Assembly (NCBI GenBank): GCA_937952315.1
Contig: CALFZX010000010.1
Span: 5,047 to 69,046 of the forward strand
Direction: 5' to 3'
DNA length: 64,000 nucleotides
From: an uncultured bacterium
Lineage (GTDB): Bacteria; Patescibacteriota; Minisyncoccia; CAIUEV01
Shown here: piece after piece, positions 30,901 through 50,001 of the stretch
How the letters are laid out: every line of letters begins with the position of its first letter
Numbering within the stretch: the first letter of the stretch is position 1
Made by a program: the position numbers and the translations under genes
Notes under the pieces: generated by a model
Database searches by the model: none
The model's input: only the letters and a program-made list of their open reading frames with translations
What the model was told of the DNA's origin: nothing

Positions 30901-30954
30901 GTGGTGAACGGCGAAACAAGTATCGCCGAAGCGGCTCGATCGACGGAGCTTTAA
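27922..30954 (+). CDS. Tandem-fused double PilB/GspE-type secretion ATPase (two complete T2SS/T4P ATPase modules in one 1010-aa polypeptide)
   Basis: Each half carries Walker A 'LNTGPTGSGKTTTLY', Asp box, Walker B 'GEIRDEET', His box 'TGHLV(F/L)STLHTNSA' and a tetracysteine zinc motif (CPYC...CPRC in the first half, CPHC...CEKC in the second). Confidence 0.85.
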   Translation: MAFSKKISSTGREEFQEITLRDTTRRLSRISEEEQAAIKAAGLGLPYLDLNIFPVGTETISTLPEEVSRFGQLVVIQKAGRDLKVGVVEPKDPKTQEVLEKMEKDEGYNSRIYIISKTSLERALDRYKQANLSTSLEEMMLTLSGKDLEKFENDIKELVDLKKRIRELPTTEVLNVIIAGAIKLEASDVHTEPQKEDVRIRYRLDGVLHDIVHIPYNFYPYVLSRVKMLSGLKLNIRDRAQDGRFTIKTNSSEIDVRVSILPGNYGENVVMRLLNQDSVGLKLEDLGLRGRAFDQLISQLNKPNGMILNTGPTGSGKTTTLYACLMRINSPDTKIITIEDPIEYRLPGISQTQVHKEKGYDFSNGLRSIVRQDPDAILVGEIRDEETGDIAVHAALTGHLVFSTLHTNSASGAVPRLIDLGIRPTLIAPSVNCVIAQRLVRKLCPYCKEEYVPAKETLESMGRFLSIISPKAGVEIPKNITTLFRAKGCPRCKGIGYKGQMGIFEVFEINKETEKLVLEMAPATDLLAAAMESGMITMLQDGILKASEGITSMDEVERTTGAGQYLQEVYEKIMTQLLSLQLKIDKKQIGETLECGFDAQKMASLIQKASNKEILNYVVAGGLAFDAGDIHMEPQGDLIKIRYRIDGILEDITDIKAQDYLPILSQIKLLSGFKTDSHEAVQDSRFGIALEMQINDIADTKIDVRVSIITGGYGETVVLRLLHKSARALEVEKIGFRPQLLEKLLREIEKPNGIILNTGPTGSGKTTTLYSLLNRLNKPEVKIITVEDPIEYRLAGILQTQVSTEEGYDFANALKALLRQNPDIMMIGEIRDEETAKIAIQASLTGHLVLSTLHTNSAVASIQRLINMNIDPTDIATSTNAMMAQRLLRKLCPHCRKEVLPSDQDKRKLEEVLATVSKSSGVEVPSKIEKLFEPVGCEKCKNLGYSGRIAVAEIMAMSPTLEEMVSRFMITSEIERQAISEGMLTMTQDAAIRVVNGETSIAEAARSTEL

Positions 30955-36946: not shown

Positions 36947-37690
36947 ATGAAGAAGCAAGTAATCGAGGAAACTCTCAAGAAAATTAAACGGGAAAAAATA
37001 GAGCCGACTCCCAAATGGCAATTTGAATTGAAGAATTTTTCAGTTTGGGCGATCGTAGCGATTTTAATTGTCTCGGGCGGAGTGGCTTCGGGGCTTTTGA
37101 TTTATTTTTCTTTAGGTATGAGCCAAGAATTTTTCAGTTTGGGTGAAGGCCGACGCTGGATTTTTCTTTGGCATTTTTTTCCTCGTTTTTGGTTACTGAT
37201 TCTTTCAATTTTCTTTTTTTTGGCTTTCTTGGTCTTTCGCCAAACCAAACATGGCTATCGTTACGGTACTTGGTTGATTTCAGCCGGATTAATTTCTCTG
37301 GTGATTTTCATAGGCAGTGCACTTTATTTTTCTAACAAAAGCGAATGGACCCACGAATGTTTTTGTAATAGCGTTCCCTACTATAAGGAGCTCTCTTTCG
37401 ACAGAGAGAAAGTTTGGAGCCGTCCGGACATCGGTTTTTTGGGAGGCAAGGTGTTAACAGTGGAAGAAAATAATTTAAATTTAGAAGATTTGGTCGGGAC
37501 TGTTTGGTATGTAAAACTTGACGACGGGGTGTATATCAGTCGAAGAATCAATTTAATGCCGGAAATGATGATTAAAATAATGGGAGTCAAGGAAGCGGAA
37601 AACATTTTTCGGGCGGAGGAAATTAAACCTTGGAGCGGGCGAGGAAAGAGAAAGAGTCCGTCAACAATTTGTCCGCAAATTTCCTTTTGA
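36947..37690 (+). CDS. Membrane protein, putative anti-sigma factor (by context)
   Basis: It lies immediately downstream of the ECF sigma gene. A cytoplasmic N-terminus is followed by several transmembrane helices. No motif-level support. Confidence 0.35.
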   Translation: MKKQVIEETLKKIKREKIEPTPKWQFELKNFSVWAIVAILIVSGGVASGLLIYFSLGMSQEFFSLGEGRRWIFLWHFFPRFWLLILSIFFFLAFLVFRQTKHGYRYGTWLISAGLISLVIFIGSALYFSNKSEWTHECFCNSVPYYKELSFDREKVWSRPDIGFLGGKVLTVEENNLNLEDLVGTVWYVKLDDGVYISRRINLMPEMMIKIMGVKEAENIFRAEEIKPWSGRGKRKSPSTICPQISF

Positions 37691-37762
37691 AACTTTTTTT
37701 CCCTTCGTTCGTTATAGGTTAGTGCGTACGCAACTGTTCACTAATAAACCTAATTTAAAAAG

Positions 37763-38197
37763 ATGAAAAAGTATAATCGTAATCTAAATAGTTATCTTCT
37801 GGCCGGCGCTCTTTGCACTGCCGGAGTCGCCTCGGCGGCCATGATCGCCATCCCTACTTTCGCTTATCGTGGAGACGCTTCCCAAACAGGACCGAATTAC
37901 ACTCCGGAGCGACACGAAGCGATGGAGAAAGCTTTCGAAAATAAGGACTATGCAGCTTGGAAAAACCTTATGGCGGGCAAGGGCAGAGTAACGGAAGTCA
38001 TTAATCAAGATAATTTTGCCAAATTTGCCGAAATGCACAAGTTAAGAAAAGAGGGAAAGATTGACGAAGCTAACAAAATTCGCGCCGAACTCGGTTTAGG
38101 CCAAGGCCGAATGGGCAAAGCTGACGGGCAAAAGGGCAAGGGCATGGGCAAAGGTATGCGCAACTGCGACTGCCAAACCCAAACCGCTACTCAATAG
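37763..38197 (+). CDS. Secreted or membrane-anchored small protein with Lys/Gly-rich tail
   Basis: N-terminal signal or transmembrane segment. The C-terminus is low complexity: 'GQGRMGKADGQKGKGMGKGMRNCDCQ'. Confidence 0.45.
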   Translation: MKKYNRNLNSYLLAGALCTAGVASAAMIAIPTFAYRGDASQTGPNYTPERHEAMEKAFENKDYAAWKNLMAGKGRVTEVINQDNFAKFAEMHKLRKEGKIDEANKIRAELGLGQGRMGKADGQKGKGMGKGMRNCDCQTQTATQ

Positions 38198-38225
38198 TTA
38201 GTTTGCCGAAATTTTTAATAACCAA

Positions 38226-38252
38226 CGAGAGGTGCTTAGGCACCTCTTTTTG
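38226..38252 (+). terminator. Rho-independent terminator
   Basis: 'agaggtgc-ttag-gcacctct' followed by 'ttttgg', 30 nt after the stop of the preceding gene. Confidence 0.65.
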
Positions 38253-38345
38253 GTATATCTCCGTCTGGACAATAACCTTTAATAAAGATATATTGATTCC
38301 CAATCCATGCTCCTTGCCAAAATATTTTATCGATAGGAGAAAAAA

Positions 38346-38621
38346 ATGGTTCCGACTGTCGCCGATATGGAAAGAAGCGCCAGATATCATCTGCTTGCTT
38401 CAGTTTTCTCAGTCATCGTTTTCCCAATTTTGTTAATCGGCTCAGTTGTTATTTTCAGCTTGAGTTGGATTAGCCCGACGGTTTTTTGGTGTGCTCGGTT
38501 AGCAATGGCCGTCTTGGCGACGGGTATTGCCTTTGCCTATTTCAAAGCGGGCAATAAGTCGAAAGTTCCTCGTTGGTCGGTTGTCTCTTTGGTCATAGTT
38601 GCAACTCTTGTCATAAAATAA
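38346..38621 (+). CDS. Hypothetical small 3-transmembrane membrane protein
   Basis: 91 aa, preceded by 'aggagaaaaaaatg'. Three hydrophobic helices. Its GC content is higher than its surroundings. Confidence 0.35.
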   Translation: MVPTVADMERSARYHLLASVFSVIVFPILLIGSVVIFSLSWISPTVFWCARLAMAVLATGIAFAYFKAGNKSKVPRWSVVSLVIVATLVIK

Positions 38622-38750
38622 AAAAAACATTATTCTGTAAATGCACATCAGCACCTTCCAAAAAATTTAACAAGCACATTCCAACAAAACAACTCAACCA
38701 GCACATTCCCTCAACCCAGACCCTTTCTCAATCCCTCATCACAACCCCAA

Positions 38751-38786
38751 CCCCTCGCCGCGCGCCAGGGGTTTTTCTTTTTTTGG
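38751..38786 (+). terminator. GC-rich hairpin plus T-tract (terminator-like)
   Basis: 'cccctcgccgcgcgccagggg' followed by 'tttttcttttttt'. It follows a ~110-nt C/A-rich tract. Confidence 0.45.
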
Positions 38787-38807
38787 AGTCTTTATTTCTG
38801 ATCAATC

Positions 38808-38862
38808 TCCAAATCTACCTGCCTGCCGCCTGCCTGCCGGTAGGCAGGGTAAGCAGGTATTT
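38808..38862. repeat. GC-rich imperfect palindrome
   Basis: 'tacctgcctgccgcctgcctgcc|ggtaggcagggtaagcaggta' contains direct 'cctgcc' repeats and inverted arms. Its GC content is far above the local background. Confidence 0.5.
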
Positions 38863-38972
38863 AGGTTAAGCCCTCTCTTCCCCCATTTTTTGTTTGGGAG
38901 TAGAGTGAGAGTGAAATGCAAAACAAGAGTGATTGTTAGCTTTATCTTCTAAAAACTTTTTAGGAATAAAAG

Positions 38973-41900
38973 ATGAAAAATTTCATTACCAACAGTGGGG
39001 CGGATAATCTTAAAGATCGCTTGCTGGAACTAATAAAAAGCAGCGAGGAGTTAAAATTTTTGGTTGGATTCTTCTATTTCTCTGGGATTAGAGAGCTTTA
39101 CGAAGGATTAAAAAAGAAGCCAGATACCGTCATTAAAGTTCTTGTTGGCCTAAATGTTGATCAATCCAATTTTGGCTTAATTGAATTTTCAGAGAAAGAA
39201 CAGTTATCTGATGAGGAAAAAACTTATAAATTCTTTGAATCGATAAAAAAATCTTTAAACAACGAAAGTCTTGATAACCAAGAATTTTATGAACAGGTAA
39301 GATTTTTTATTAAGCTTATTCAAAAAGACAAATTAATTATCCGTAAAACTTTTAAGCCTAATCACTCCAAACTTTATCTTTTTAAGTTGGATGAAAGTCA
39401 AGTAGGTCAAAGAAATTTATTTATTACAGGATCGAGTAATTTAACTAGTGCCGGTCTTTCTACCCAAAATGAATTCAATGTAGAAATAGGCGATTATGGT
39501 TTTGGGGATGCCGAGCAGTATTTTGAAGATCTTTGGCAAGAAGCAGTGAAGATTACCGAATTTGATGATCTTAAAAAGAAACTCGTTCAAGTTATTGAAG
39601 CAGAAACATTAGTAAAAGATATTTCACCATTTGAAGCTTTTTGTTTAGTTTTAAAAACATATCTTGATTCGTTCGAGCAAAAAGAAATTAGCGATTCTTT
39701 GATTAAAATTCTAGAAAAAAATAATTATAAGCCGTATCAATATCAGCTAGATGCGGTTAGGCAAGCATTGGCCATAATAGAAAAAAATAACGGAGTTATT
39801 GTAGCTGATGTAGTCGGTTTGGGAAAAACAATTATTGCCTGTGCCATAGCGAAACAGCTGAAAAAACGCGGGCTGATTGTTTGTCCCCCGGGTCTTATAG
39901 GTGATAGTAACAAAAATTCTGGCTGGAAAAAATATACGGAAGAATTTAGCCTTTATGATTGGGAAGTTCGTTCATCGGGTGATCTGGGGAAAATATTGGA
40001 GTTCGTTAAAAAGGCTACGGACATTGAAGTTATAATAGTTGATGAAGCTCACAGTTTTAGGAATCAAGACACGAAAAACTATGAGCTTCTGAAAAATATT
40101 TGTCGTGGAAAACAAGTGATTTTATTGACTGCCACCCCTTTTAACAACCGTCCAGCGGATATTTTAGCTCTTTTAAAACTTTTTATAACTCCTAAAAAAT
40201 CCTCGATTACATTAGAAAACAATTTGGTTGATCAATTCAAGGGTTTCAAAGGTATGTTTGAGAAGCTTGGGCATATTAGTAAATATTGGAGTTCCACTGA
40301 CGAATCTAAAAGAAATCAAGCTATAAATTATTATAAAGCATTATTCGAAGAAGAAACCGTTGATTTGAAAAAAGTCGCCGTAAGAGCCCGCTATCTTTCT
40401 AAGCAAATTAGAAATGTTATTGAGCCGGTAACAATAAGGCGTAATCGACTTGATTTGCAGAATAATCCTTATTACAAAAATGAAGTCAAAAATCTTGCAA
40501 AAGTGGAAGATCCCATAGAGTGGCCTTTCTATTTAACAGTTGAACAGTCCAGATTTTATGATGAAGTCATAAAAAATTATTTTGGCGAGCCAGAGGAGGG
40601 GGGAAGGTTTAAAGGCTCAATTTACAGACCCTTTGAATACGAAAAAGTTGTTGAGGACAAGATGGGTAAAGATGATAATCGTCAATTTATTCAGCAAAGA
40701 AATTTGTTTGACTTCATGAGACGATTGATCGTGAAACGATTTGAAAGTTCTTTTGGGTCATTTGCGCAAAGCATCAAAAACTTCAAGAAAATTACGGAAA
40801 GTAGTCGAGATTTTATTAAAAAAACCGGAGAGTATATTCTAGATAGAGCACTTTTGGAAAAAATCTATGAATTAGAGGCTGAAGATATTGAAAAATATCT
40901 CTTAGAGTATGAGGAAAAAATAAAAAAAGGTGAATACCCCAAAAACCACAAACGATATAAATTAAGTGCATTTAAGCACAAAAATGCTTTTCTTCGGGAC
41001 ATTGATTCGGATCTAAAATTGTTTGACGAAATATTATCAGAGCTAAACAGAATGAGTCTTATTAAAAATGATCCGAAAACCGCTTGCTTGTTGAAGCACC
41101 TGAAAGAAGAATTAAACAAAAAGCCACAAAAGGATGAGCCAAAAAGAAAAATTATTATTTTTTCTGAATATATTGATACTGTTAAGTATCTTGAAAAAGC
41201 ATTAGAGAAAACATTTGAAGACAGAATTTTAGTAGTAGACGGTGGCTTGTCAGTAGCAAAAATCAATCAAATCAACAAAAATTTTGACGCCTCATACAAT
41301 AGTAAAGAAAATAATTTTGATATTTTATTGACATCCGACAAAATTTCAGAGGGTTTTAACTTGAACAGAGCGGGAATGGTCATTAATTATGACATTCCAT
41401 GGAATCCGGTTCGGGTTATTCAGCGGCTTGGTCGTATCAATCGTATTAGTAAAAAAGTTTTTAATGAGCTTTATATTGTAAACTTCTTTCCGACTGAACA
41501 AGGTGCGACACTGGTTCAATCGCGTGAAATTGCTGCCAACAAAATGTTTTTAATCCACAATACTTTGGGCGAGGATTCAAAAATTTTTAATATCGACGAA
41601 GAACCAACCCCCGCAGGACTTTTTAACCGAATTCAACGAAATCCAGATCAGCAAGAAAAAGAAGGATTTTACACTAAAGCGTTAAACCACTATTTAAAAA
41701 TAAAGAAAGATAATCCGGAGTTGATTGCTGGCTTGAAGAAATATCCTCCAAGAATCAAGGTAGCAAAAATTTACACAGAAAATGAGCTTTTGGTTTTTTT
41801 CAAAAAGGGGAGACTCTATGTCAGTGGAGCAAAAACCGACACGGAAAAGATTGAAATATTTCAAGCAAGCCTTGAAGATGTCTTTGAAAAAATTGTTTGC

Positions 41901-42293
41901 CAATCGAACGAAAAAGCACAAAACTGGAACACAGATCAATTTTGGAAAGCATACGATTCTATCCAAACATACAAAAACTTTCGTTTAGGTTCCGTTAGCG
42001 AACAAAGTCTTGAGTCAAAAGCTCTTAATAGCCTCGATTCTCTTATTTTAAGCAACACAGAAAGTCTTATCCCCCACAAGGATTTTCTGAGAATGTTGAA
42101 AGAAGATATTTTATCATACGGTACATTGGCCGATTATACTTTGCGTCGAATTATCGGATTGAAAGAAAACTCTGTCAAAGAAATTAGGGCATTAAAAAAA
42201 GAATTAGGAGAGGACTATCTAGCCAAAGAAAAGGATCGCCAGAAAGAGCAGAAAAAAGAAGTTATTATCGCTATTAATAATCTTAAAAAATGA
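38973..42293 (+). CDS. SNF2-family helicase with N-terminal PLD-like nuclease domain
   Basis: N-terminal '...NHSKLYLFKLD...ITGSSNLT' matches the HxK...D...GSxN phospholipase-D motif. Helicase motifs: I 'VADVVGLGKTIIA', II 'IVDEAHSFRN', III 'LLTATPFNN', V/VI 'DIPWNPVRVIQRLGRINRIS'. Confidence 0.85.
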   Translation: MKNFITNSGADNLKDRLLELIKSSEELKFLVGFFYFSGIRELYEGLKKKPDTVIKVLVGLNVDQSNFGLIEFSEKEQLSDEEKTYKFFESIKKSLNNESLDNQEFYEQVRFFIKLIQKDKLIIRKTFKPNHSKLYLFKLDESQVGQRNLFITGSSNLTSAGLSTQNEFNVEIGDYGFGDAEQYFEDLWQEAVKITEFDDLKKKLVQVIEAETLVKDISPFEAFCLVLKTYLDSFEQKEISDSLIKILEKNNYKPYQYQLDAVRQALAIIEKNNGVIVADVVGLGKTIIACAIAKQLKKRGLIVCPPGLIGDSNKNSGWKKYTEEFSLYDWEVRSSGDLGKILEFVKKATDIEVIIVDEAHSFRNQDTKNYELLKNICRGKQVILLTATPFNNRPADILALLKLFITPKKSSITLENNLVDQFKGFKGMFEKLGHISKYWSSTDESKRNQAINYYKALFEEETVDLKKVAVRARYLSKQIRNVIEPVTIRRNRLDLQNNPYYKNEVKNLAKVEDPIEWPFYLTVEQSRFYDEVIKNYFGEPEEGGRFKGSIYRPFEYEKVVEDKMGKDDNRQFIQQRNLFDFMRRLIVKRFESSFGSFAQSIKNFKKITESSRDFIKKTGEYILDRALLEKIYELEAEDIEKYLLEYEEKIKKGEYPKNHKRYKLSAFKHKNAFLRDIDSDLKLFDEILSELNRMSLIKNDPKTACLLKHLKEELNKKPQKDEPKRKIIIFSEYIDTVKYLEKALEKTFEDRILVVDGGLSVAKINQINKNFDASYNSKENNFDILLTSDKISEGFNLNRAGMVINYDIPWNPVRVIQRLGRINRISKKVFNELYIVNFFPTEQGATLVQSREIAANKMFLIHNTLGEDSKIFNIDEEPTPAGLFNRIQRNPDQQEKEGFYTKALNHYLKIKKDNPELIAGLKKYPPRIKVAKIYTENELLVFFKKGRLYVSGAKTDTEKIEIFQASLEDVFEKIVCQSNEKAQNWNTDQFWKAYDSIQTYKNFRLGSVSEQSLESKALNSLDSLILSNTESLIPHKDFLRMLKEDILSYGTLADYTLRRIIGLKENSVKEIRALKKELGEDYLAKEKDRQKEQKKEVIIAINNLKK

Positions 42294-43972
42294 TTATTGA
42301 GGATTTAATGAAGATTTTAGCTCAACCTTCTGAAAATGAGAATGTTGAGTTTAAAGAAGCAAAGAATAGTTTTTCAGTACTAGGAAGGGACAATAAACGA
42401 GGTAAAAAAAATCGTAAGTCGATTTATGGCTATTCTGTTGCCATCGGCAACGAAGGTGGCGGACACTTAATCTTAGGAGTTAAGGACAAAATAAATAAAA
42501 AAACCGGTAGACGAGATATCGTTGGCACAAAGGCCATTCAAAACATAACCCAAACCAAAGAAAAATTGTACGAGGCTTTAGGAAGAAGAGTCGAAATTCA
42601 AACCCTAAAGACCCCGGAGGGGACTGTTCAGGTGATAGAAATACCAGCACATCCGGTAGGGGGAACTTTTAAATTTTACAATGTTCCATTGATGAGAAAT
42701 GGTGAAAATCTAGTTCCTATGGATGACGAGACTCTCAAAAAAATATTAACTGAAAATAGAGAAGACTTTTCTGCAAAATTAAATCTCTCAGCAAATTTTG
42801 ATGATTTAGACCCAAAATTACTTAGAATTTTAAAGGACAAGTATATCCTAAAATCGGGGAACAAGGAGCTAAAAGAAGTTTCTCATAAAGATATTTTGCA
42901 AAAATTACTTTTAGTAAGAAAAGATAAAATAACAAATGCTTGTTTGTTGTTAGTAGGAAAAGAAGATTCTTTGGCTAGATTAATTCCCAACCATGAAATA
43001 TTTTTAGAATGGCGTTCAGATGAGCACAAACTTGAATTTGAAAATCGCTACACAACAAGAAAAGCCTATCTATCAGTCGAAGCTGAAATATGGAAATATG
43101 TTAACGCTCGTAATGTTCGCGTTCCTTTTAAACAGGGCTTTTTTGAGATGGATATTTGGGCATACGATAAAAATAGCGTAAGAGAATCGGTTTTGAATGC
43201 TTTTGCTCACAGAGAATATGATAATCGGACAGAGCCTGTCTATGTGCGCTTGTCTCCGAGCAATTTGTCCATAAAAAGTCCCGGAGGTTTTGTCTCCGGT
43301 GTGTCAGTAGAAAATATTTTAGATGTTGAAGGAAAGTGGAGAAATCCATTTTTGATGGATGTACTGAGCCGCATAGGTTTAGTGGAAAGGGCTGGAATCG
43401 GACTGGATCGAATTTACAAAAAAACTATTTCTGATGGAAAGGGTTTGCCGAATTTTGACGGGACTGACAATGATCAAGTTATTTTAAATATTCCCGCCAT
43501 TGTTAAAGATCCCGGCTTTATTTATTATTTAGAAAAAATTAATCAAAAAAACCAGCTTTTTTCATCAACAAAGGATTTTATCGAGTTGGAAAAAATAAGA
43601 GGAACCGGAATCCCTGAGGATAAGAATAGACTAAAATATTTTCTGAAAAACAATATTATAGAGAAAATTAATCATGGCAGGGGTACCAGGTATATCCTAG
43701 CAAAGAATTTTTATGAATTTATTGAGGGTAAAGGCGAATACACAAGAAAAAAATGGCTTAGCAAAGAACAGCAGAAAGAAGTGCTTTTAAATTATTTTAT
43801 TCAGCATAAAGAAGGCAGAATGTCGGACTTCAAGGAGCTTTTTGAGGATAAGTTGAATAAAATTCAAATTAATATTTTACTAAACAAACTCAGAGACGAA
43901 GAAATGATTTATTTCGACGGTAAGGAGAGATCAAGCAAAGCATACTGGCGCTTAAGGAAAAATACAGAGTAA
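42290..43972 (+). CDS. AlbA_2/Schlafen-like putative DNA-binding ATP-binding protein (divergent-AAA / HATPase_c_4-type regulator)
   Basis: N-terminal 'ENVEFKEAK...YSVAIGNEGGGHLILGVKD' matches the AlbA_2 signature. Its start overlaps the upstream stop as ATGA. Confidence 0.6.
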   Translation: MIIEDLMKILAQPSENENVEFKEAKNSFSVLGRDNKRGKKNRKSIYGYSVAIGNEGGGHLILGVKDKINKKTGRRDIVGTKAIQNITQTKEKLYEALGRRVEIQTLKTPEGTVQVIEIPAHPVGGTFKFYNVPLMRNGENLVPMDDETLKKILTENREDFSAKLNLSANFDDLDPKLLRILKDKYILKSGNKELKEVSHKDILQKLLLVRKDKITNACLLLVGKEDSLARLIPNHEIFLEWRSDEHKLEFENRYTTRKAYLSVEAEIWKYVNARNVRVPFKQGFFEMDIWAYDKNSVRESVLNAFAHREYDNRTEPVYVRLSPSNLSIKSPGGFVSGVSVENILDVEGKWRNPFLMDVLSRIGLVERAGIGLDRIYKKTISDGKGLPNFDGTDNDQVILNIPAIVKDPGFIYYLEKINQKNQLFSSTKDFIELEKIRGTGIPEDKNRLKYFLKNNIIEKINHGRGTRYILAKNFYEFIEGKGEYTRKKWLSKEQQKEVLLNYFIQHKEGRMSDFKELFEDKLNKIQINILLNKLRDEEMIYFDGKERSSKAYWRLRKNTE

Positions 43973-44075
43973 CTGTGTTTTTTCGAATAATTTTAATTAT
44001 TTTGGCTTAATAAAGCCAAATGATCAATAACCTAAAATACAGACCAAATACAGTTTTAAAATTAATTAAGAATCA

Positions 44076-47000
44076 ATGAGCGAATCCAGGCAAATTCTAG
44101 AAACTATAATTAATGATTTTTCCGTTGATAAATTTAGCCGGTTTTTTCGGGAAAAAAATCGCAATTTTGTTGTGCGAGAAGAAAATTACACTCGTTACGA
44201 TGATGATAATTTTAAGGATGGATTGAAAATCGGAGAAATAAATTTTTCTGAAATTGAGAAAATTATTGTTTGCTCTTTTAAAGTCAAAAATAGTTTATCT
44301 GAACGATCGGGCAAAAGAGCCCAATATGAAAAAGCTAAAAACATATTAAAATCAAACGAAAATCGCATCTTTTCTGCCGGTATTTTTATTTTTTATGATA
44401 AAGATGGCCACTTCCGCTTTTCTCTTGTCTATCCTGAGAGCATAGGCACAAAAAGACAGTGGAGTCACTTTAAGCGATTTACATATTTTGTTAATAAGGA
44501 ACTAACCAACAAAACTTTTTTGAAGCAGATTGGGGAGAAAAAGATTGAATCCGTTGATGAAATCAAAGAAGCTTTCTCAATCTCCGCGGTTACAAACTTG
44601 TTCTATGATGATTTTTTCAAGATATACGATACGATTATTCAGGAAACAAAAAAAATCAATGATATAGATGACGACAACTTATCGAGAGAATTCGTTCTTC
44701 TTTTTGCCATAAGAACTATTTTTCTCGGCTTTATCCAAAAGAGAAAATGGCTAGGTGGTGACGAAAAATTTATTGAAAATTTTTATAGAGAGTATTCAAG
44801 CTCAAACAAAAAGAACGAATTTTATTCAAACTGGCTCTGTCCTTTATTTTTTGAAGCGCTGAATTCAAGTCCCGGTCATAAAGTTGAGTACGGAAAAAAC
44901 AATTTTTCAAAAGAAACCGAACTGAAATTGCAAATGGCTCCTTTTTTGAATGGCGGGCTTTTTAAGGAAAAAAGAGGCTATGACAATAACGGTTGGATTA
45001 TTCCGGACGAACAGATAAAATCTTTTTTTGAATTTCTTTTTTCGCACAGCTTTACGATAGAAGAAAATGCTCTTGACGATGAGGATCTACAGCTTAATCC
45101 GGAGTTCTTGGGAATTATTTTTGAAAGACTTGTCAACAAAGCTGATGGAGCAGTCTATACACAAAGAATGGAAGTTGATATAATGTGTCGATGGAGCCTA
45201 ATCAAATGGTTAGAAAAAAATCTCGATTCATCCATTAGCAAAAAAAATCTTTATGAACTTTTTTTTAGGGAAAGCGGGGAGGATGAAGATGAGAAAAAAG
45301 GAAGTTTCTCAAAAAAGGAGGCGATGATGATTCTTGAAAAACTGGAGCAACTTTCTATTTGTGATCCGGCGGCGGGATCGGGAGCTTTTCTGGTTGGAAT
45401 GATGCAAGTTTTAGATGAAGTCGAACAATCTTTAAAGGAGCGTTACGGATTAAATGGGAGAAATGTTTTTGAAAGAAAAAAACAAATTATTAAAAACTCT
45501 CTTTACGGTGTCGAAGCCAAAGAATGGGCGGTTTGGATCTGCCAACTAAGGCTTTGGCTTTCTTTGTTTATCGATACGCCCGAAGAAATGAAAAATTCAA
45601 TGGAAGCAATTTTGCCGAGTTTAGATTTCAAGGTTCGAAGAGGCGATTCTTTGGTTCAAAGAGTCGGTTCAAAGAGCTTTCCGGTCGCGGGTAGAAATTT
45701 AAGTTTGAGCACGAATAACAAAATAAAAATAACAAAACTCAGAAAATATAAAATCGATTATTTCGACAATAAAATCAAGCTGCTAAAAAATGATTTCGAT
45801 GTCTGCGCTCACCGCGAATTATCAATCTATGAAAGTATTATTGATGAAGAAATCAAGACAAAAAAAGATGAAATTAAAAAAGAGAAAAATATAAAAATAT
45901 CTGAGACAATGACGCTGCTGCCCTCTTTAGGCTATCTGCAAGAACAACAACAAGCCACTCTTCAATTGGATAATAAAGAAAAAATAGAAAGATTAGAAAA
46001 GGAAATTAAAGACTTACTAGAACAAAAAGAATTATTAAAAAAAGGCAAACCATTGGTTTGGAACATAGAATTCGCTGATATTTTTTGGGGCGATAAGAAA
46101 GGCTTTGATATTGTTATCGGGAACCCTCCCTATGTTCGTCAGGAATCAATTGAAGATCCGATGGGAAAAGTTAAAGATAAAAAAGAGTATAAAAAATATC
46201 TTCAAGAGATGGTACGGCTTGATTTCCCCAATGATTTTCCACCAAAAAAGAAAATCAACGCCCAATCGGATCTTTATACTTATTTTTATATTCGCGGATT
46301 AAAAATTCTTAATTCTCAGGGAGTTCACGCCTTCATCTGCTCCAATTCTTGGTTGGATGTCGGCTACGGAACTTGGCTTCAAGAGTTCTTGCTTAAACGC
46401 TGCCCAGTTGATTTAATTATAGACAATCACGCCAAGCGTAGTTTTGGTGCCGCCGATGTGAACACAATTATTTCGATTATCCATGCTCCTCAAAAAAAAG
46501 TGGATGAAAATCATTTGGTAAAGTTCACGGCCTTCAAAAAACCTTTTGAAAAGGTTATTTTTACGAATAATCTTTTAGAAATAGAAGAGGCTAAGCAAGT
46601 CTTGAACAACGAAAATTTTCGAGTCTATCCGATTTCAATCAAAGATTTGAAGGAGGCGGGAACGGAATATGAAGATAAAACATTGGTTAAGACGGGAAAA
46701 TACGTCGGCGACAAATGGGGCGGTAAATATCTCCGCGCCCCTGATATTTTCTTTACGATTTTGGAAAAAGGAAAGGATAAATTAGTAAAATTAAGGGATG
46801 TGGCGGACGTTCGTTTTGGCATTAAGACTGGTGCCAATGATTTTTTTTATTTGACGAAATCCAAAGCTAAAGAATGGGGAATTGAGGAGGAATTTTTAAA
46901 GCCGGTCATCAAGAGTCCGAGAGAGTGCAAAAGTATTTTAGTCAATCCGAAGGATTTGAAATATAAAATTTTTATGTGTAACAAAAGCAAAGAAGAGCTC

Positions 47001-47594
47001 AAAGGAACAAACGCTTTGAAGTATATTGAGTGGGGAGAGGTGAAGGGCTTTGATGAGCGTCCAAGCTGTGGAAGTAGACGAATGTGGTGGAATTTAGGAC
47101 TGGTTGATTCTAAAATTGTGTACCCATCGACATATAATCCTGTATTTAAAATTTTTTTTAATACAGAAAAATATCCAGTTGATAAAGTATTCTACGGCAT
47201 TGAGTCAAATAAACCAGAGAACTTAATTGTTTCAGTTGTCAGCTATTTATTTACTTTACAAACAGAAGTTTATGGATATGCACTAGTCGGTGGCGGAGGA
47301 TTATTTATGACAGTAGAAAATCTTGGTCGCATCCTTGTTTTTTATGACAAAAAAATAAAAAACGATCCTTCAGTGTATAGTAAGATTCGGAAATCAATCT
47401 TTGAAGAATGTGGAATCGACCCGAAGTCTGAGATTCCGATTGAGGAGCAGGAGCCGAATCCGTTACCTGATCGGGCGGAGTTGGATAAAATTGTTTTTGA
47501 TGCGCTGGGATTAACCACAGAAGAACGCAAAGAAGTTTATCGGGCTGTTTGCCGGTTGGTTTGGAACCGCATCAGTAAGGCGAAGAGTGTATAA
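44076..47594 (+). CDS. Type IIG/Eco57I-family N6-adenine DNA methyltransferase, possibly with N-terminal PD-(D/E)xK endonuclease
   Basis: Motif I 'DPAAGSGAFLVG', 'LYGVEAKEWAVWICQLRLWLSL' (Eco57I/PglX-type), and motif IV 'GNPPYVRQ'. About 500 aa of C-terminal target-recognition-like region. The N-terminal 'DDD...EIEKIIVCSFKVK' may be a nuclease core. Confidence 0.85.
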   Translation: MSESRQILETIINDFSVDKFSRFFREKNRNFVVREENYTRYDDDNFKDGLKIGEINFSEIEKIIVCSFKVKNSLSERSGKRAQYEKAKNILKSNENRIFSAGIFIFYDKDGHFRFSLVYPESIGTKRQWSHFKRFTYFVNKELTNKTFLKQIGEKKIESVDEIKEAFSISAVTNLFYDDFFKIYDTIIQETKKINDIDDDNLSREFVLLFAIRTIFLGFIQKRKWLGGDEKFIENFYREYSSSNKKNEFYSNWLCPLFFEALNSSPGHKVEYGKNNFSKETELKLQMAPFLNGGLFKEKRGYDNNGWIIPDEQIKSFFEFLFSHSFTIEENALDDEDLQLNPEFLGIIFERLVNKADGAVYTQRMEVDIMCRWSLIKWLEKNLDSSISKKNLYELFFRESGEDEDEKKGSFSKKEAMMILEKLEQLSICDPAAGSGAFLVGMMQVLDEVEQSLKERYGLNGRNVFERKKQIIKNSLYGVEAKEWAVWICQLRLWLSLFIDTPEEMKNSMEAILPSLDFKVRRGDSLVQRVGSKSFPVAGRNLSLSTNNKIKITKLRKYKIDYFDNKIKLLKNDFDVCAHRELSIYESIIDEEIKTKKDEIKKEKNIKISETMTLLPSLGYLQEQQQATLQLDNKEKIERLEKEIKDLLEQKELLKKGKPLVWNIEFADIFWGDKKGFDIVIGNPPYVRQESIEDPMGKVKDKKEYKKYLQEMVRLDFPNDFPPKKKINAQSDLYTYFYIRGLKILNSQGVHAFICSNSWLDVGYGTWLQEFLLKRCPVDLIIDNHAKRSFGAADVNTIISIIHAPQKKVDENHLVKFTAFKKPFEKVIFTNNLLEIEEAKQVLNNENFRVYPISIKDLKEAGTEYEDKTLVKTGKYVGDKWGGKYLRAPDIFFTILEKGKDKLVKLRDVADVRFGIKTGANDFFYLTKSKAKEWGIEEEFLKPVIKSPRECKSILVNPKDLKYKIFMCNKSKEELKGTNALKYIEWGEVKGFDERPSCGSRRMWWNLGLVDSKIVYPSTYNPVFKIFFNTEKYPVDKVFYGIESNKPENLIVSVVSYLFTLQTEVYGYALVGGGGLFMTVENLGRILVFYDKKIKNDPSVYSKIRKSIFEECGIDPKSEIPIEEQEPNPLPDRAELDKIVFDALGLTTEERKEVYRAVCRLVWNRISKAKSV

Positions 47595-47740
47595 GATTTG
47601 ATTATCTAATATAATTATCGATTTCAGAGGAATTTAAATTGAATTTGTGAGCTTTAAATTAAAAATAAGATATTGTGTAAAGATCACAAGATTTTTTGTA
47701 AAAACACTTTAGAAAACATTAAACATCTTCTCATGATTCG

Positions 47741-47959
47741 GTGATGCTGAAGTCGGCCGATGTTTTGAGCAATGTGACGGAAATGATCGACGACTACGCG
47801 CGCTATCAGGATGAAGTTTTCGATCGCTTCAGAGGAACCAAAAAAGAGACGATTGCCCATTATTTAAGAGTAATTGAGGCGCTCAATTCGCGGTGGCCGG
47901 GAAATCCGTTGCGTAAAGATTTGGAGCGCGCTACCCGCGAGCTAAGCAGAATCAACTAG
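47741..47959 (+). CDS. Orphan GC-rich small ORF (72 aa), possible gene remnant
   Basis: GC content is roughly 50% by eye, against an AT-rich surrounding. No Shine-Dalgarno or motif. Coding status uncertain. Confidence 0.2.
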   Translation: MMLKSADVLSNVTEMIDDYARYQDEVFDRFRGTKKETIAHYLRVIEALNSRWPGNPLRKDLERATRELSRIN

Positions 47960-48198
47960 AGACCGCAAGAAATCAAGGAAGGAATTGCAAAGCTATGAAA
48001 GAATGCTTTTGTAGGTCTTTCAACCTTCCCAAATCTTTTCTTTGAAGCTAGAAAAACATAAAAACCTCAGGGAATCCAATGTATAATTGGTCAACAGACA
48101 CTCGAAAGCTCAAAAAAAATTACCTTCAATTCCTCCTATGGGAAAATAAGGGGGAAGTATTTTGAGTCAAAAAAGATTATTCATTAAGTTTACTCAAT

Positions 48199-48232
48199 AA
48201 AAAAACCTCTCCGGACCGGGGTCGGGAGAGGC
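48199..48232 (-). terminator. Rho-independent terminator
   Basis: On the minus strand, hairpin 'cctctcccgaccccggtccggagagg' followed by 'ttttttt', 30 nt after the stop of the 163-aa gene. Confidence 0.65.
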
Positions 48233-48264
48233 GAGTAATTGTAGGAAGTCCACGATATTTAATT

Positions 48265-48756
48265 TTAGATGGATCTTTCGCCGATTCTGGTCAAAATTTC
48301 CAGCCTTTCTTCCAATAATGAAACTCTTTTTTCTCCCTCGTAAACAAGATCTTCGAGACTCATAATCAGCAGACCAAAATGCGGAGCAAAGATCCAGCTA
48401 TCGTATCCGGGAGGAAAAACTTCAAGAGAAGAATCGATTTTATCTTTAGCAAATAATCGAACAAAGTTTCCAGCTTCGTCCAAATACAATTTTCCATCCG
48501 GCAAATCAACCAAAAAAATACCCCCCGAGCCAGCAGGTTTTCGATCCAAAAATTGATATCGATCGATAAAGATATTCGGGTTGCCGTGCAGATGAAAAAG
48601 AAAATCAAGGTGGGGCTTGATCCTATCAATCAACAAATCGACGGTCACTTTGCATTGTTTTGCAAGCTTAAGACTCGAATCGTCCGGAAGAAACCTCAAT
48701 AAATTTAAAACTCGAAAATTTAAAGTATTTAAATCAGACAAACTGATACCTGTCAT
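48265..48756 (-). CDS. Hypothetical protein, possibly a degenerate metallophosphoesterase-like fold
   Basis: 'HLHGNPNIF...KPAGSGGIFLVDL' loosely resembles the C-terminal GHTH...NPGS region of YfcE/MJ0936-type phosphodiesterases. The N-terminal DxH/GD metal motifs are absent. Confidence 0.3.
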   Translation of the reverse strand: MTGISLSDLNTLNFRVLNLLRFLPDDSSLKLAKQCKVTVDLLIDRIKPHLDFLFHLHGNPNIFIDRYQFLDRKPAGSGGIFLVDLPDGKLYLDEAGNFVRLFAKDKIDSSLEVFPPGYDSWIFAPHFGLLIMSLEDLVYEGEKRVSLLEERLEILTRIGERSI

Positions 48757-48915
48757 TGCCTAACTCCTCTTTTAATATTTTCCCTTCAAAATTTTTGAAG
48801 GTTGAAGATGACTTAAATCAATTATTTTTTCGTGGCTTCCAACAATCAATTAAAGAACTTTTTATTGAGGCCAACATTATAGCAAGTTTTGTAGCAAGTC
48901 AAGAATTTTTTAGGC

Positions 48916-50001
48916 CTAGCGAGTTATTTCAAAGGTCTCCACTTCTTCCTTCAGTTTTCTGGCCTTATCGTTTTGGCGAAAATATTCACGCACGGGCTCA
49001 ATTATTTCATCGAGATAGGTAACTAAATTATTTTTGAGATCCAGCGGGTAAATCTCACCCGATTGGTAAAGTTTTTCCAGCTCGGCGTAAGAGTTGACTG
49101 TTATGTTGCCGCCGAATTTTTCTTCGCGATGGACAACCACCTGTGAATGCTTGAGGAAAACAATGTAGCGGAAATATTCCAGAACGGGGTTTAGCTCGAT
49201 TTCATTGGGCGGACAATAAGCTTTTCCGATTTTTTCGGCAATCTCCTCGCGAGTATCCGTCATAAAGACGGCTGAATCGGGTTTTGATTTTGACATTTTG
49301 AGAGCAATCGTCTGCTCGATTTTATCTTCTCCCTCCTTCAACTGATCCACCGGTGGCTTTAAGCTGATTAACATGTGATGATGAACGGCCGCCGGTTTTT
49401 CGAGTCCCAAAGCGGGAGCGATTTGACGGGCCAGCATGTTGACTTTTCGTTGATCCATGCCCAGTTGAGCGATATCAACGCCTAGAAAAAAAATATCGGC
49501 CGCCTGCATGGCCGGATAAAAAATTTGCGCAGCCGTTAAATTATCTGACTCTTTTCGTCCCATAATTTGAGAGCAACGAATAATGCGCTTTAGTGTGGTC
49601 TCTTTGGCAATTTTCAGAACGCTAAACCAATAGCCCGGTTTTTCCACTAGATCGGAAGCCCAAATGAATTCAATGCCTTTGGTGTCAAGACCGCACGCCT
49701 TCCAAACTTCAATGAAATAGCGACCGGTTTGCTGAATTTTTTTCAGATCCCCGCCCAGTTTGTTATTGGCGTAGGCATGCCAGTCGGCAATCAAAACTTT
49801 AAAGTGGATGCCGGCCTTAATAAGTTTTTGAATTGTCATAGCGCGAACAAAACCTTGAGCGACATGAATCCGACCGGAGGGCTCAAAACCGTCGTACGCA
49901 ACAAGTTTTTTCCCCTGTTTTATTTTCTCTTCAATCTCCGAGAGACCAATTATCTCCTCGCCCACTTCCTGAATCAGTTTTATTTTTTCTTCGGTAGTCA
50001 T
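48916..50001 (-). CDS. tyrS: Tyrosine--tRNA ligase, archaeal/eukaryotic type
   Basis: 'YDGFEPSGRIH', 'LIADWHAYANNKLGG', 'KMSKS', and 'KIGKAYCP...EKFGGNITVNSYAELEKL' align closely with Methanocaldococcus-type TyrRS blocks. 361 aa. Confidence 0.85.
   Translation of the reverse strand: MTTEEKIKLIQEVGEEIIGLSEIEEKIKQGKKLVAYDGFEPSGRIHVAQGFVRAMTIQKLIKAGIHFKVLIADWHAYANNKLGGDLKKIQQTGRYFIEVWKACGLDTKGIEFIWASDLVEKPGYWFSVLKIAKETTLKRIIRCSQIMGRKESDNLTAAQIFYPAMQAADIFFLGVDIAQLGMDQRKVNMLARQIAPALGLEKPAAVHHHMLISLKPPVDQLKEGEDKIEQTIALKMSKSKPDSAVFMTDTREEIAEKIGKAYCPPNEIELNPVLEYFRYIVFLKHSQVVVHREEKFGGNITVNSYAELEKLYQSGEIYPLDLKNNLVTYLDEIIEPVREYFRQNDKARKLKEEVETFEITR

What the first reader, a model, noticed from the sequence alone, without database searches (positions are those of the whole stretch)
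38973..47594. Candidate uncharacterised defence island: PLD-SNF2 helicase + AlbA_2 protein + Type IIG methyltransferase
Three co-directional genes form one operon. The first and second overlap as ATGA, and 103 nt separate the second from the third. Together they provide a PLD nuclease, an SNF2 helicase, a Schlafen/AlbA_2 nucleic-acid-binding ATPase-like protein, and an Eco57I/PglX-type N6-adenine methyltransferase. This is the functional toolkit of DISARM (DrmC PLD, DrmD SNF2, DrmMI methylase) and partly of BREX (PglX), but DrmA/DrmB and BrxC/PglZ/BrxL are absent, and the PLD and SNF2 domains are fused in one protein. The block is visibly more AT-rich than the flanking housekeeping genes. It is bounded by unusual GC-rich hairpin DNA upstream (38640-38870) and a GC-rich orphan ORF plus ~650 nt of non-coding DNA downstream, which suggests horizontal acquisition.
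Basis: partly seen in the sequence, partly recalled or inferred. Interest (0 to 1): 0.88.

Follow-up and report, generated by a model that had tools for sequence, protein, structure and literature searches.

The report
Two-gene restriction-like defence with embedded Schlafen
The block is a horizontally acquired anti-phage locus whose conserved core is two genes, a nuclease-helicase and a DNA methyltransferase, forming an unnamed variant of ATP-dependent restriction-modification, with an independent Schlafen-type defence gene inserted between them.

Summary
Three co-directional ORFs sit at 38973-42293, 42290-43972 and 44076-47594 with the stated domains, and their G+C is about three standard deviations below the other genes.

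The interpretation needs correcting, because the trio is not the conserved unit. Of 44 distinct related loci with enough downstream sequence, 34 have the PLD-SNF2 gene (A) directly abutting the Eco57I-type methyltransferase gene (C). Eight have one unrelated gene wedged between them, and two are degraded. The AlbA_2 gene (B) occupies that slot only in this lineage. Its closest relatives stand alone, or sit inside a Type III or next to a Type ISP-like system.

No partner needed for DISARM, BREX, ARMADA or MANTIS/Gao_RL is present, and no curated model reaches its cut-off.

C has the Type IIG/PglX architecture, but its N-terminal nuclease-like domain lacks the acidic catalytic residue. That domain tracks A in sequence (Spearman 0.90), while the methyltransferase and specificity parts do not (0.04-0.12).

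Best reading: C marks self DNA and supplies sequence specificity, and A is the ATP-driven PLD nuclease. B is an independent Schlafen back-up effector. This is a new variant of a known kind and of moderate interest. No function has been tested.

The parts
38973..42293 (+). Gene A: PLD (HKD) nuclease fused to an SNF2 helicase, the predicted motor-nuclease (restriction) subunit. PLD domain about 39027-39536, helicase core about 39726-41462, uncharacterised C-terminal region 41550-42290.
   Evidence: Pfam PLDc_2, SNF2-rel_dom and Helicase_C. The full-length PADLOC match is to C3a139 'HKD+Snf2'. H131, K133, GSSN, Walker A, DEAH and motif VI are conserved in at least 95% of 52 unique homologues of 50-83% identity. 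The C-terminal 246 aa have no Pfam or PADLOC match.
42290..43972 (+). Gene B: Schlafen/AlbA_2 nuclease domain, HATPase_c_4 (histidine-kinase-like) domain and a C-terminal region. It is an embedded, independently mobile accessory defence gene. Schlafen domain about 42332-42721, HATPase_c_4 about 43235-43477.
   Evidence: Pfam. The E15-x4-E20-x-K22 motif is conserved in at least 110 of 118 sequences and matches the catalytic motif reported in bioRxiv 10.1101/2025.07.24.666596. Relatives of 60-66% identity stand alone (L109), sit next to a Type ISP-like methyltransferase (L110), or lie between Mod and Res of a Type III system (L112).
44076..47594 (+). Gene C: Type IIG/PglX-like gamma-class N6-adenine methyltransferase with its own target-recognition domain, the predicted modification and specificity subunit. 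N-domain 44076-44570, helical region 44571-45230, methyltransferase 45231-46535, target-recognition domain 46611-47591.
   Evidence: Pfam Eco57I, MmeI_Mtase and N6_Mtase; M_Eco57I_C. The model (pLDDT 75) aligns along its full length to BpuSI, PglX and MmeI, and best to the CamA and M.BseCI methyltransferases. Motif I and NPPY are present.
44076..44570 (+). N-terminal domain of C: restriction-endonuclease-like fold with a degenerate catalytic site. Proposed docking module for A.
43956..43984 (+). Hairpin followed by a T-run, spanning B's stop codon. It may act as a partial terminator between B and C.
   Evidence: -12 kcal/mol, z = -3.8, no shuffle folds as well. It was also listed by the terminator scan. 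Function not tested.

Best explanation
A and C form a self-contained, mobile, two-component ATP-dependent restriction-modification-like defence. B is a separate back-up effector lodged inside it.

Shown:
- The gene pair is conserved and its two genes abut.
- All catalytic motifs of A and C are intact.
- C carries its own TaqI/Eco57I-type target-recognition domain.
- C's N-terminal nuclease-like domain has lost the acidic catalytic residue in this window.
- That domain stays with A while the rest of C is exchanged between lineages.

Inferred:
- C recognises a short, probably asymmetric, sequence and methylates adenine in host DNA.
- At unmethylated sites, C recruits A through its N-domain.
- A translocates along double-stranded DNA using ATP.
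- Each A chain has only one HKD motif, so two chains must pair to form one PLD active site and cut. This could be a constitutive dimer, as in MtsD and SauUSI, or a collision of two complexes.
- B is a Schlafen-type nuclease controlled by its histidine-kinase-like and C-terminal domains. It probably cleaves tRNA or other RNA to abort infection when the primary system is bypassed.

B is translationally coupled to A through the ATGA overlap, but the A+C system does not require it.
For: Linkage.
- Of 44 distinct A loci (at least 57% identity, at least 1.2 kb downstream), 34 have C within 110 nt, 8 have one inserted gene, and 2 are degraded.
- In the clade at about 50% identity, C is downstream in 2 loci and upstream in 5.
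- The reverse check gave 3 of 3: loci chosen through C carry a PLD-SNF2 gene directly upstream.

Context.
- Flanking genes are unrelated housekeeping genes in each locus.
- Neighbours often include Gabija-like gene pairs, a reverse transcriptase, NYN and TIR genes.
- G+C of the block is about 3 sd below the host genes.

Motif conservation.

Architecture of C and its degenerate nuclease site.

N-domain covariation with A, 0.90 against 0.04-0.12 for the rest of C, and a sharp identity break at residues 150-175.

Specificity region. The target-recognition region is the most variable part of C, with mean pairwise identity 0.19. This is expected for diversifying specificity.

Junction genes. The genes found in the A-C junction are all co-directional single genes wedged between the two system genes. 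This is the embedding pattern that bioRxiv 10.1101/2024.01.29.577857 reports for genes inside Hma, BREX, DISARM and Type I systems.

Analogous characterised systems.
- In MANTIS, a dimeric PLD-helicase (MtsD) acts downstream of a specificity-giving methyltransferase (bioRxiv 10.64898/2026.09.23.753747).
- B's motif and architecture match prokaryotic Schlafens, some of which protect against phage.
Against: - Nothing was tested experimentally. No methylation motif, cleavage activity or A-C contact has been shown.
- The N-domain covariation could reflect only physical linkage, because that domain is encoded right next to A's 3' end. The pairwise values are also not phylogenetically independent.
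- About 8 of 44 diverse C homologues keep a full D...E-x-K triad. In those, C might cut on its own.
- In MANTIS the methyltransferase needs an AAA+ loader, and MtsD nuclease activity has not been reconstituted. The analogy is therefore incomplete.
- HATPase_c_4 genes recur next to this pair in at least four independent arrangements: the window, L006, L108 and L113. A functional tie with B-like proteins is therefore not excluded.
Confidence: 0.62

Rival explanations
1. C is an autonomous Type IIG/IIL restriction-modification enzyme that cuts with its own N-terminal nuclease. A is an unrelated stand-alone helicase-nuclease defence, like SauUSI or Hna, that merely sits beside it.
For: PADLOC's best matches for C are Type IIG models (2.3e-42). 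C has the full-length BpuSI/MmeI architecture. Its N-domain has a restriction-endonuclease-like fold. A minority of homologues keep D...E-x-K.
Against: The window's C has K69 where the acidic residue should be, and the triad is not conserved across the family. A and C abut or overlap in 34 of 44 loci and are linked in both search directions. The N-domain tracks A rather than the rest of C. A has no recognisable target-recognition domain.
Confidence: 0.1
2. A, B and C are one obligate three-component system, a DISARM/BREX-like hybrid in which the AlbA_2 protein is a core sensor.
For: The ATGA overlap couples A and B in this locus. HATPase_c_4-containing genes recur next to the pair in the window, L006, L108 and L113.
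Against: B is absent from 34 of the 44 evaluable loci and is replaced by unrelated genes in others. The recurring B-like genes are only 22-28% identical to B and occupy different positions. B's closest relatives lie in unrelated contexts.
Confidence: 0.08
3. The pair works like BREX or DISARM, blocking phage DNA replication or entry without cutting it. On this view the PLD domain has a non-nucleolytic or regulatory role.
For: A's helicase region is most similar to DrmD, BrxHI/BrxHII and DpdE. C resembles PglX and DrmMI in part. The SNF2 plus PglX-like methyltransferase pair is a shared module of DISARM class 1 and ARMADA.
Against: The HKD catalytic residues and the GSSN motif are conserved in at least 95% of homologues. 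None of the other BREX, DISARM or ARMADA components is present. PLD-helicase fusions characterised so far are nucleases (SauUSI) or predicted nucleases (MtsD).
Confidence: 0.12
4. The locus is not a defence system. It would instead be an epigenetic regulator or a DNA-repair or remodelling module.
For: SNF2 proteins and orphan methyltransferases can have housekeeping roles. No phenotype is known.
Against: Distribution across phyla is patchy, with up to 83% identity between phyla. Composition is foreign to the host. Genomic contexts vary. Defence genes are embedded in it or lie next to it. The specificity domain is hypervariable.
Confidence: 0.05

Closest known systems
MANTIS (= Gao_RL, Type-2 'BREX-related' system): MtsA AAA+/DUF499, MtsB/DUF3780, MtsC methyltransferase, MtsD PLD-helicase
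   Same: An N-terminal single-HKD PLD nuclease is fused to an SF2/Snf2-type helicase as effector, paired with an N6-adenine methyltransferase that gives specificity. It belongs to the methylation-based self/non-self logic.
   Different: No DUF499 AAA+ loader and no DUF3780 protein occur in the window or in related loci. No Gao_RL/MtsD model appears among the PADLOC matches shown for A, and A's best matches there cover mainly the helicase region. C is a Type IIG-like protein with its own N-domain and target-recognition domain.
DISARM class 1 (DrmD SNF2 + DrmMI) and ARMADA (ArmA + ArmB)
   Same: An SNF2 helicase gene is paired with a PglX-like adenine methyltransferase gene. DrmD is A's best helicase match.
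   Different: No YprA/DUF1998 helicase (DrmA/DrmB, ArmC) and no UvrD-like ArmD are present. The PLD is fused to the SNF2 protein rather than being a separate DrmC. NCBIfam DrmD scores 164 bits against a cut-off of 610.
Type IIG/IIL restriction-modification enzymes (BpuSI, MmeI, DrdV, Eco57I)
   Same: C shares their order of domains: nuclease-like N-domain, helical region, gamma-class N6A methyltransferase, and target-recognition domain.
   Different: The catalytic acid of the N-domain is missing in the window and is not conserved in the family. A dedicated ATP-dependent PLD-helicase gene is always attached.
Type ISP (LlaGI, LlaBIII) and Type III restriction-modification
   Same: They combine an ATP-driven SF2 motor, a nuclease, a methyltransferase and a single target-recognition domain, and probably recognise asymmetric sites. 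This is inferred from established knowledge of these classes, not tested here.
   Different: Here the functions are split into two polypeptides, unlike Type ISP. The nuclease is PLD rather than Mrr/PD-(D/E)xK, the motor is SNF2-type, and the methyltransferase is gamma-class with a C-terminal recognition domain rather than a Type III Mod.
SauUSI (Type IV PLD-helicase restriction enzyme)
   Same: N-terminal PLD nuclease plus SF2 helicase in one chain. The active site is formed by dimerisation.
   Different: SauUSI carries its own recognition domain for methylated cytosine and has no methyltransferase partner. A showed no sequence match to it in the PDB search.
Prokaryotic Schlafens (pSlfn-HisKinase-HTH class)
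   Same: B has the Schlafen/AlbA_2 domain with the E-x4-E-x-K motif plus a histidine-kinase-like HATPase_c_4 domain. This is the commonest bacterial Schlafen architecture and is often embedded in BREX and related loci.
   Different: The two members shown to protect (a DUF262-Slfn fusion and RorSlfn5) are different representatives; whether either has B's architecture was not established from the text read. B itself is untested. Its C-terminal winged-helix domain was not detected by Pfam.

Membership tests
DISARM class 1 | DrmA helicase and DrmB (DUF1998) core genes present | tested here: not met
   No such ORF in the window (Pfam of flanks and of all large ORFs) or in related loci.
DISARM class 1 | A reaches the curated DrmD model cut-off | tested here: not met
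   NF038317 scores 164.3 bits against a cut-off of 610, and NF038318 scores 93 against 950.
BREX (any type) | PglZ phosphatase and BrxC/PglY ATPase present | tested here: not met
   Absent from the window and from related loci.
BREX (any type) | C reaches a curated PglX model cut-off | tested here: not met
   BREX-1 PglX scores 54.3 bits against 500, BREX-6 scores 43.6 against 900, and BREX-2 scores 31.1 against 400.
MANTIS / Gao_RL / Type-2 BREX-related | DUF499 AAA+ ATPase (MtsA) and DUF3780 protein (MtsB) in the operon | tested here: not met
   Neither was found in the window or in any related locus examined.
MANTIS / Gao_RL / Type-2 BREX-related | N-terminal HKD nuclease fused to a Snf2-type helicase, plus an N6-methyltransferase | tested here: met
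   Pfam and motifs.
ARMADA | YprA-like DUF1998 helicase-nuclease (ArmC) | tested here: not met
   Absent.
Type IIG/IIL restriction-modification enzyme | Single chain with nuclease-fold N-domain, gamma-class N6A methyltransferase and target-recognition domain | tested here: met
Type IIG/IIL restriction-modification enzyme | Intact PD-(D/E)xK catalytic residues in the N-domain | tested here: not met
   The window has D43 and K69-V-K71. The E69 and K71 positions hold E in 20 of 44 and K in 15 of 44 diverse homologues. Assignment of the motif to strand beta-3 rests on a model, not on a solved structure.
Type III restriction-modification | Mod subunit of the N6_N4_Mtase type and Res subunit with a C-terminal PD-(D/E)xK nuclease | tested here: not met
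   C is of the Eco57I/N6_Mtase type. A's nuclease is an N-terminal PLD.
Prokaryotic Schlafen (pSlfn-HisKinase class) | Schlafen/AlbA_2 domain with the E-x4-(E/D)-x-K motif fused to a histidine-kinase-like domain | tested here: met
   Pfam SLFN_AlbA_2 at 1.3e-08 and HATPase_c_4 at 6.1e-13. E15, E20 and K22 are conserved in at least 110 of 118 sequences. The motif is defined.
Prokaryotic Schlafen (pSlfn-HisKinase class) | Anti-phage activity or RNA cleavage | not testable with these tools
   Needs expression and phage challenge.
ATP-dependent restriction-modification in general | Sequence-specific methylation that protects against cleavage by the partner nuclease | not testable with these tools
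   Needs methylome sequencing and cleavage assays.

The most novel reading that the evidence does not exclude
The A+C pair is an unnamed, widespread class of two-gene ATP-dependent restriction-modification. In it, a former Type IIG enzyme has lost its own nuclease activity and kept the dead nuclease domain as a docking adaptor for a PLD-SNF2 motor-nuclease. The [helicase + adaptor domain] module stays constant while methyltransferase-specificity bodies are swapped behind it, and the junction between the two genes serves as a landing pad for back-up defence genes. The N-domain family comprises 256 clusters at 50% identity, and A reaches up to 83% identity between phyla, many of them uncultivated lineages including Patescibacteria.
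Probability: 0.4. Interest if true: 0.6.

Novelty: new variant of a known kind. Interest (0 to 1): 0.5.

Why it matters
If the model holds, this is the simplest member of the growing group of methylation-based, ATPase-driven defences: DISARM, ARMADA, BREX and MANTIS. It has one specificity/modification protein and one motor-nuclease, with no loader ATPase.

That would make it a tractable system for three questions. How does a methyltransferase hand an unmethylated site to a PLD-helicase? How do dead nuclease domains become interaction modules? How do specificity modules get exchanged?

It also matters for annotation. Judging from the PADLOC model matches, tools of this kind would probably label C as 'Type IIG' and ignore A. 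The system is common in uncultivated lineages, where defence repertoires are poorly known.

B adds another natural example of a Schlafen effector embedded in a restriction-like system.

Tried and rejected
- Repeats. I looked for flanking direct or inverted repeats that could mark an integration site in 37600-49000. Only short, low-identity chance-like pairs appeared.
- Rfam. A scan of 37500-49000 at E <= 0.1 found nothing, so the upstream hairpins and the C/A-rich tract match no described RNA family.
- Flanks. The flanking intergenic DNA and the small ORFs (91 aa, 72 aa, 163 aa) were compared with all fetched loci. They match only copies of the same contig, so no empty site or shared border could be defined.
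- PDB sequence searches. C gave nothing. A matched only generic SNF2/DEAD helicase regions. B matched one uncharacterised protein, 3lmm.
- Hma. I considered Hma because PADLOC gave an HmaA match. I rejected it because Hma is the DUF499-centred system, and the match covers only the helicase C-terminal part.
- Type III CRISPR accessory. I considered this because PADLOC model C3a139 comes from that survey. No cas genes are present, and the association there was based on 4 loci.
- Sub-domain PADLOC searches. A's PLD region alone and its C-terminal 246 aa gave no informative match.
- Literature searches. A search for a named PLD-SNF2 plus Type IIG system returned nothing specific. This covers only the held library.


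Full report
**1. What is in the sequence**

Three co-directional ORFs occupy 38973-42293 (A, 1106 aa), 42290-43972 (B, 560 aa) and 44076-47594 (C, 1172 aa). A's stop and B's start overlap as ATGA, and 103 nt separate B from C.

Pfam gives these domains:
- A: an N-terminal PLD domain (residues 19-188) followed by an SNF2/Helicase_C core.
- B: Schlafen/AlbA_2 plus HATPase_c_4.
- C: Eco57I, MmeI_Mtase and N6_Mtase. M_Eco57I_C is on record for the identical protein.

Catalytic motifs are all present:
- A: one HKD motif (H131, K133, GSSN), GLGKT, DEAH, TAT and QRLGRINR.
- C: DPAAGSG and NPPY.
- B: E15-x4-E20-x-K22.

G+C is 0.336-0.355 in the three genes, against 0.418 +/- 0.021 for 31 other genes of the window. 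The rest of the window is housekeeping: RpoB, several tRNA synthetases, pilus/secretion ATPases and efflux pumps. A near-identical partial copy of A is named from a Candidatus Moranbacteria bin, so the host is probably a Patescibacteria-type organism.

**2. No named system fits**

PADLOC's best matches for A are DrmD, the survey family C3a139 'HKD+Snf2', HmaA and BrxHI/BrxHII. For C they are Type IIG models, then DrmMI, and weakly PglX. Every NCBIfam match is far below its curated cut-off: DrmD 164 bits against 610, and PglX 54 against 500.

The partners that define each candidate system are absent from the window and from every related locus inspected (definitions):
- DISARM: DrmA and DrmB.
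- BREX: PglZ and BrxC.
- ARMADA: a YprA-like helicase.
- MANTIS/Gao_RL/Hma-type systems: a DUF499 ATPase and DUF3780.

**3. The conserved unit is the pair A+C, not the trio**

Homologues of A are very well conserved, at 68-83% identity, in bins assigned to many phyla. These include Methylomirabilis, Saccharibacteria, Paceibacterota, Lentisphaerae, Omnitrophica, Brocadiaceae, Cloacimonadota and Ignavibacteria.

I fetched 22 loci from species-representative genomes and 76 from metagenomes and located relatives of A, B and C in them.
- Of 44 distinct loci with A at 57% identity or more and at least 1.2 kb downstream, 34 have a C homologue starting within 110 nt of A's stop, usually 0-9 nt.
- Eight have exactly one extra gene in between.
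- Two are degraded.
- In a deeper clade at about 50% identity, C is downstream in 2 loci and upstream in 5. Four could not be evaluated.
- Starting from C instead, 3 of 3 loci have the PLD-SNF2 gene directly upstream.

Flanking genes differ from locus to locus and are mostly housekeeping. This marks a mobile two-gene cassette.

**4. B is an embedded passenger**

B lies between A and C only in this lineage. Other loci carry other genes in the same slot:
- Bro-N
- DUF3800
- PDDEXK_3
- DUF1016/YhcG
- RhuM-Fic
- NYN
- a DUF4062-HATPase_c_4-Fic-like_C protein
- in L006, a different AlbA_2-HATPase_c_4 gene with only 28% identity over 100 aligned residues

B's closest relatives (60-66% identity) lie elsewhere:
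- alone among housekeeping genes (L109)
- next to a Type ISP-like methyltransferase (L110)
- between Mod and Res of a Type III system (L112)

This is the 'embedding' pattern described for Hma, BREX, DISARM and Type I systems, where embedded genes are usually independent defences. Schlafen-histidine-kinase-wHTH genes are listed as frequent back-up effectors in BREX-type loci.

B's Schlafen motif is conserved in at least 110 of 118 sequences. It matches the catalytic motif of prokaryotic Schlafens, some of which protect against phage.

One caveat applies. HATPase_c_4-containing genes recur beside this pair in at least four independent arrangements: the window, L006, L113, and a Parabacteroides distasonis plasmid with the order B-like, A-like, C-like. 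Some functional affinity is therefore possible.

**5. Anatomy of C**

A full-length model (pLDDT 75) matches the CamA and M.BseCI adenine methyltransferases best. It aligns over its whole length to the Type IIG enzyme BpuSI, BREX PglX and the Type IIL enzyme MmeI.

On that fold, the expected catalytic positions are D43 and E69-x-K71. Some homologues read D...E-V-K. The positions are not conserved (E in 20 of 44, K in 15 of 44), and the window reads K69-V-K71. The domain is nevertheless the best conserved part of C, with invariant K80, Q83, Y84, D108, R114, S116, R134, T136 and Y137.

A search of 1.84 billion representative proteins found the domain in 365 clusters, 256 of them at E <= 1e-10. 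In the full-length proteins of about 1000-1250 aa listed among the best 150 hits it is always at the N-terminus; the other listed hits are short fragments.

**6. The N-domain goes with A, and the rest of C does not**

I compared pairwise identities across 29 loci that have both genes.

| Region of C | Spearman correlation with identity of A |
|---|---|
| N-domain, residues 1-165 | 0.90 |
| residues 166-530 | 0.12 |
| residues 660-800 | 0.12 |
| target-recognition region, residues 850-1100 | 0.04 |

In about half of the loci, identity to the window's C falls from 0.6-0.84 to 0.1-0.5 at residues 150-175. At least two deeply divergent methyltransferase-specificity bodies therefore sit behind one constant N-domain.

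The target-recognition region is the most variable part, with mean identity 0.19. The pairwise values are not phylogenetically independent, and the N-domain is encoded next to A, so linkage alone could produce the pattern. It is still what one expects if the N-domain is the contact to A.

**7. Mechanism proposed**

C gives sequence specificity and marks host DNA by adenine methylation. At unmethylated sites it recruits A through the dead nuclease domain. A uses its SNF2 motor to move along DNA.

A has a single HKD motif, so two copies must pair to build one PLD site. This is as shown structurally for MtsD and as known for SauUSI and BfiI. Cleavage then follows either in a constitutive dimer or on collision.

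The gene linkage, the motifs, the fold and the covariation are shown. Methylation, recruitment, translocation and cleavage are inferred.

B is read as an independent abortive-infection effector. A hairpin with a T-run over B's stop codon (43956-43984, z = -3.8) may separate its transcript from C's.

**8. Comparison and novelty**

The nearest characterised logic is MANTIS/Gao_RL, which pairs a PLD-helicase effector with a specificity methyltransferase. This pair lacks the AAA+ loader and the co-regulator.

DISARM class 1 and ARMADA share the SNF2 plus PglX-like module, but they add YprA-type helicases. Type IIG/IIL enzymes share C's architecture but cut by themselves. Type ISP and Type III systems share the overall enzymology but use different nuclease and methyltransferase families.

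I found no paper in the held library that names a PLD-SNF2 plus Type IIG-like two-gene system. That library is incomplete, and REBASE could not be consulted. The HKD+Snf2 protein family itself was noted in 2018, as C3a139.

I therefore rate it a new variant of a known kind. It is real, widespread and probably unnamed, but built from familiar parts.

**9. Borders**

They are a C/A-rich, G-poor tract, two hairpins, and a G+C-rich 72-aa ORF inside 670 nt of otherwise non-coding DNA. No flanking repeats or tRNA target were found. The insertion borders remain undefined.

Noticed in passing
window 38630-38760: C/A-rich, almost G-free tract (51 C, 45 A, 27 T and 8 G in 131 nt) holding an imperfect 27-nt tandem repeat at 38660-38713. 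It lies between a small membrane-protein ORF and gene A. It has no Rfam match and is not found in other loci.
   Followed up: partly
window 38817-38858: Strong hairpin built from CCTGCC repeats (-29 kcal/mol, z = -3.5), about 115 nt upstream of A's start. Its function is unknown. It is specific to this contig.
   Followed up: partly
window 47741-47959: A 72-aa ORF with a GTG start and G+C 0.49, much higher than its surroundings. It has no Pfam match and no relative in any fetched locus. It may be a gene remnant.
   Followed up: partly
L113 3847-5373: At the same A-C junction, another lineage carries a DUF4062-HATPase_c_4-Fic-like_C gene that overlaps both neighbours. It has the same 'sensor' half as B-like proteins, with a different N-terminal domain in place of Schlafen.
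   Followed up: no
L108 (P. distasonis plasmid NZ_OY725763) 5123-15478: A distant version of the set in a different order: HTH regulator, AlbA_2/HATPase_c_4 protein, PLD-SNF2 (34% identity to A), Eco57I-type methyltransferase, a hypothetical protein, and a TIR-domain protein.
   Followed up: partly
L005 13276-15898; L007 7319-10889; L008 10665-13433: Gabija-like pairs (OLD-family ATPase-TOPRIM plus a UvrD-like helicase) lie directly downstream of the methyltransferase in three separate lineages. In L005 and L008 the UvrD-like protein is unusually short, at 349-368 aa.
   Followed up: no
L112 5011-11733: A 60%-identical relative of B is embedded between the Mod (N6_N4_Mtase) and Res (ResIII) genes of a Type III restriction-modification system.
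   Followed up: no
L004, L018, L031-L033 versus the window: Protein A is 80-83% identical between bins assigned to different phyla (Methylomirabilis, Saccharibacteria and the window's host), while their methyltransferase bodies are only about 35% identical. This suggests very recent inter-phylum transfer of the helicase module together with partner swapping.
   Followed up: partly
window 27922-30954: A 1010-aa protein with two T2SSE (PilB/GspE-type) ATPase stretches in one chain. It is followed by a second, single-domain T2SSE gene at 30997-32781.
   Followed up: no
window 1667-3850 (- strand): A 727-aa ORF with no Pfam match at E <= 1e-5.
   Followed up: no
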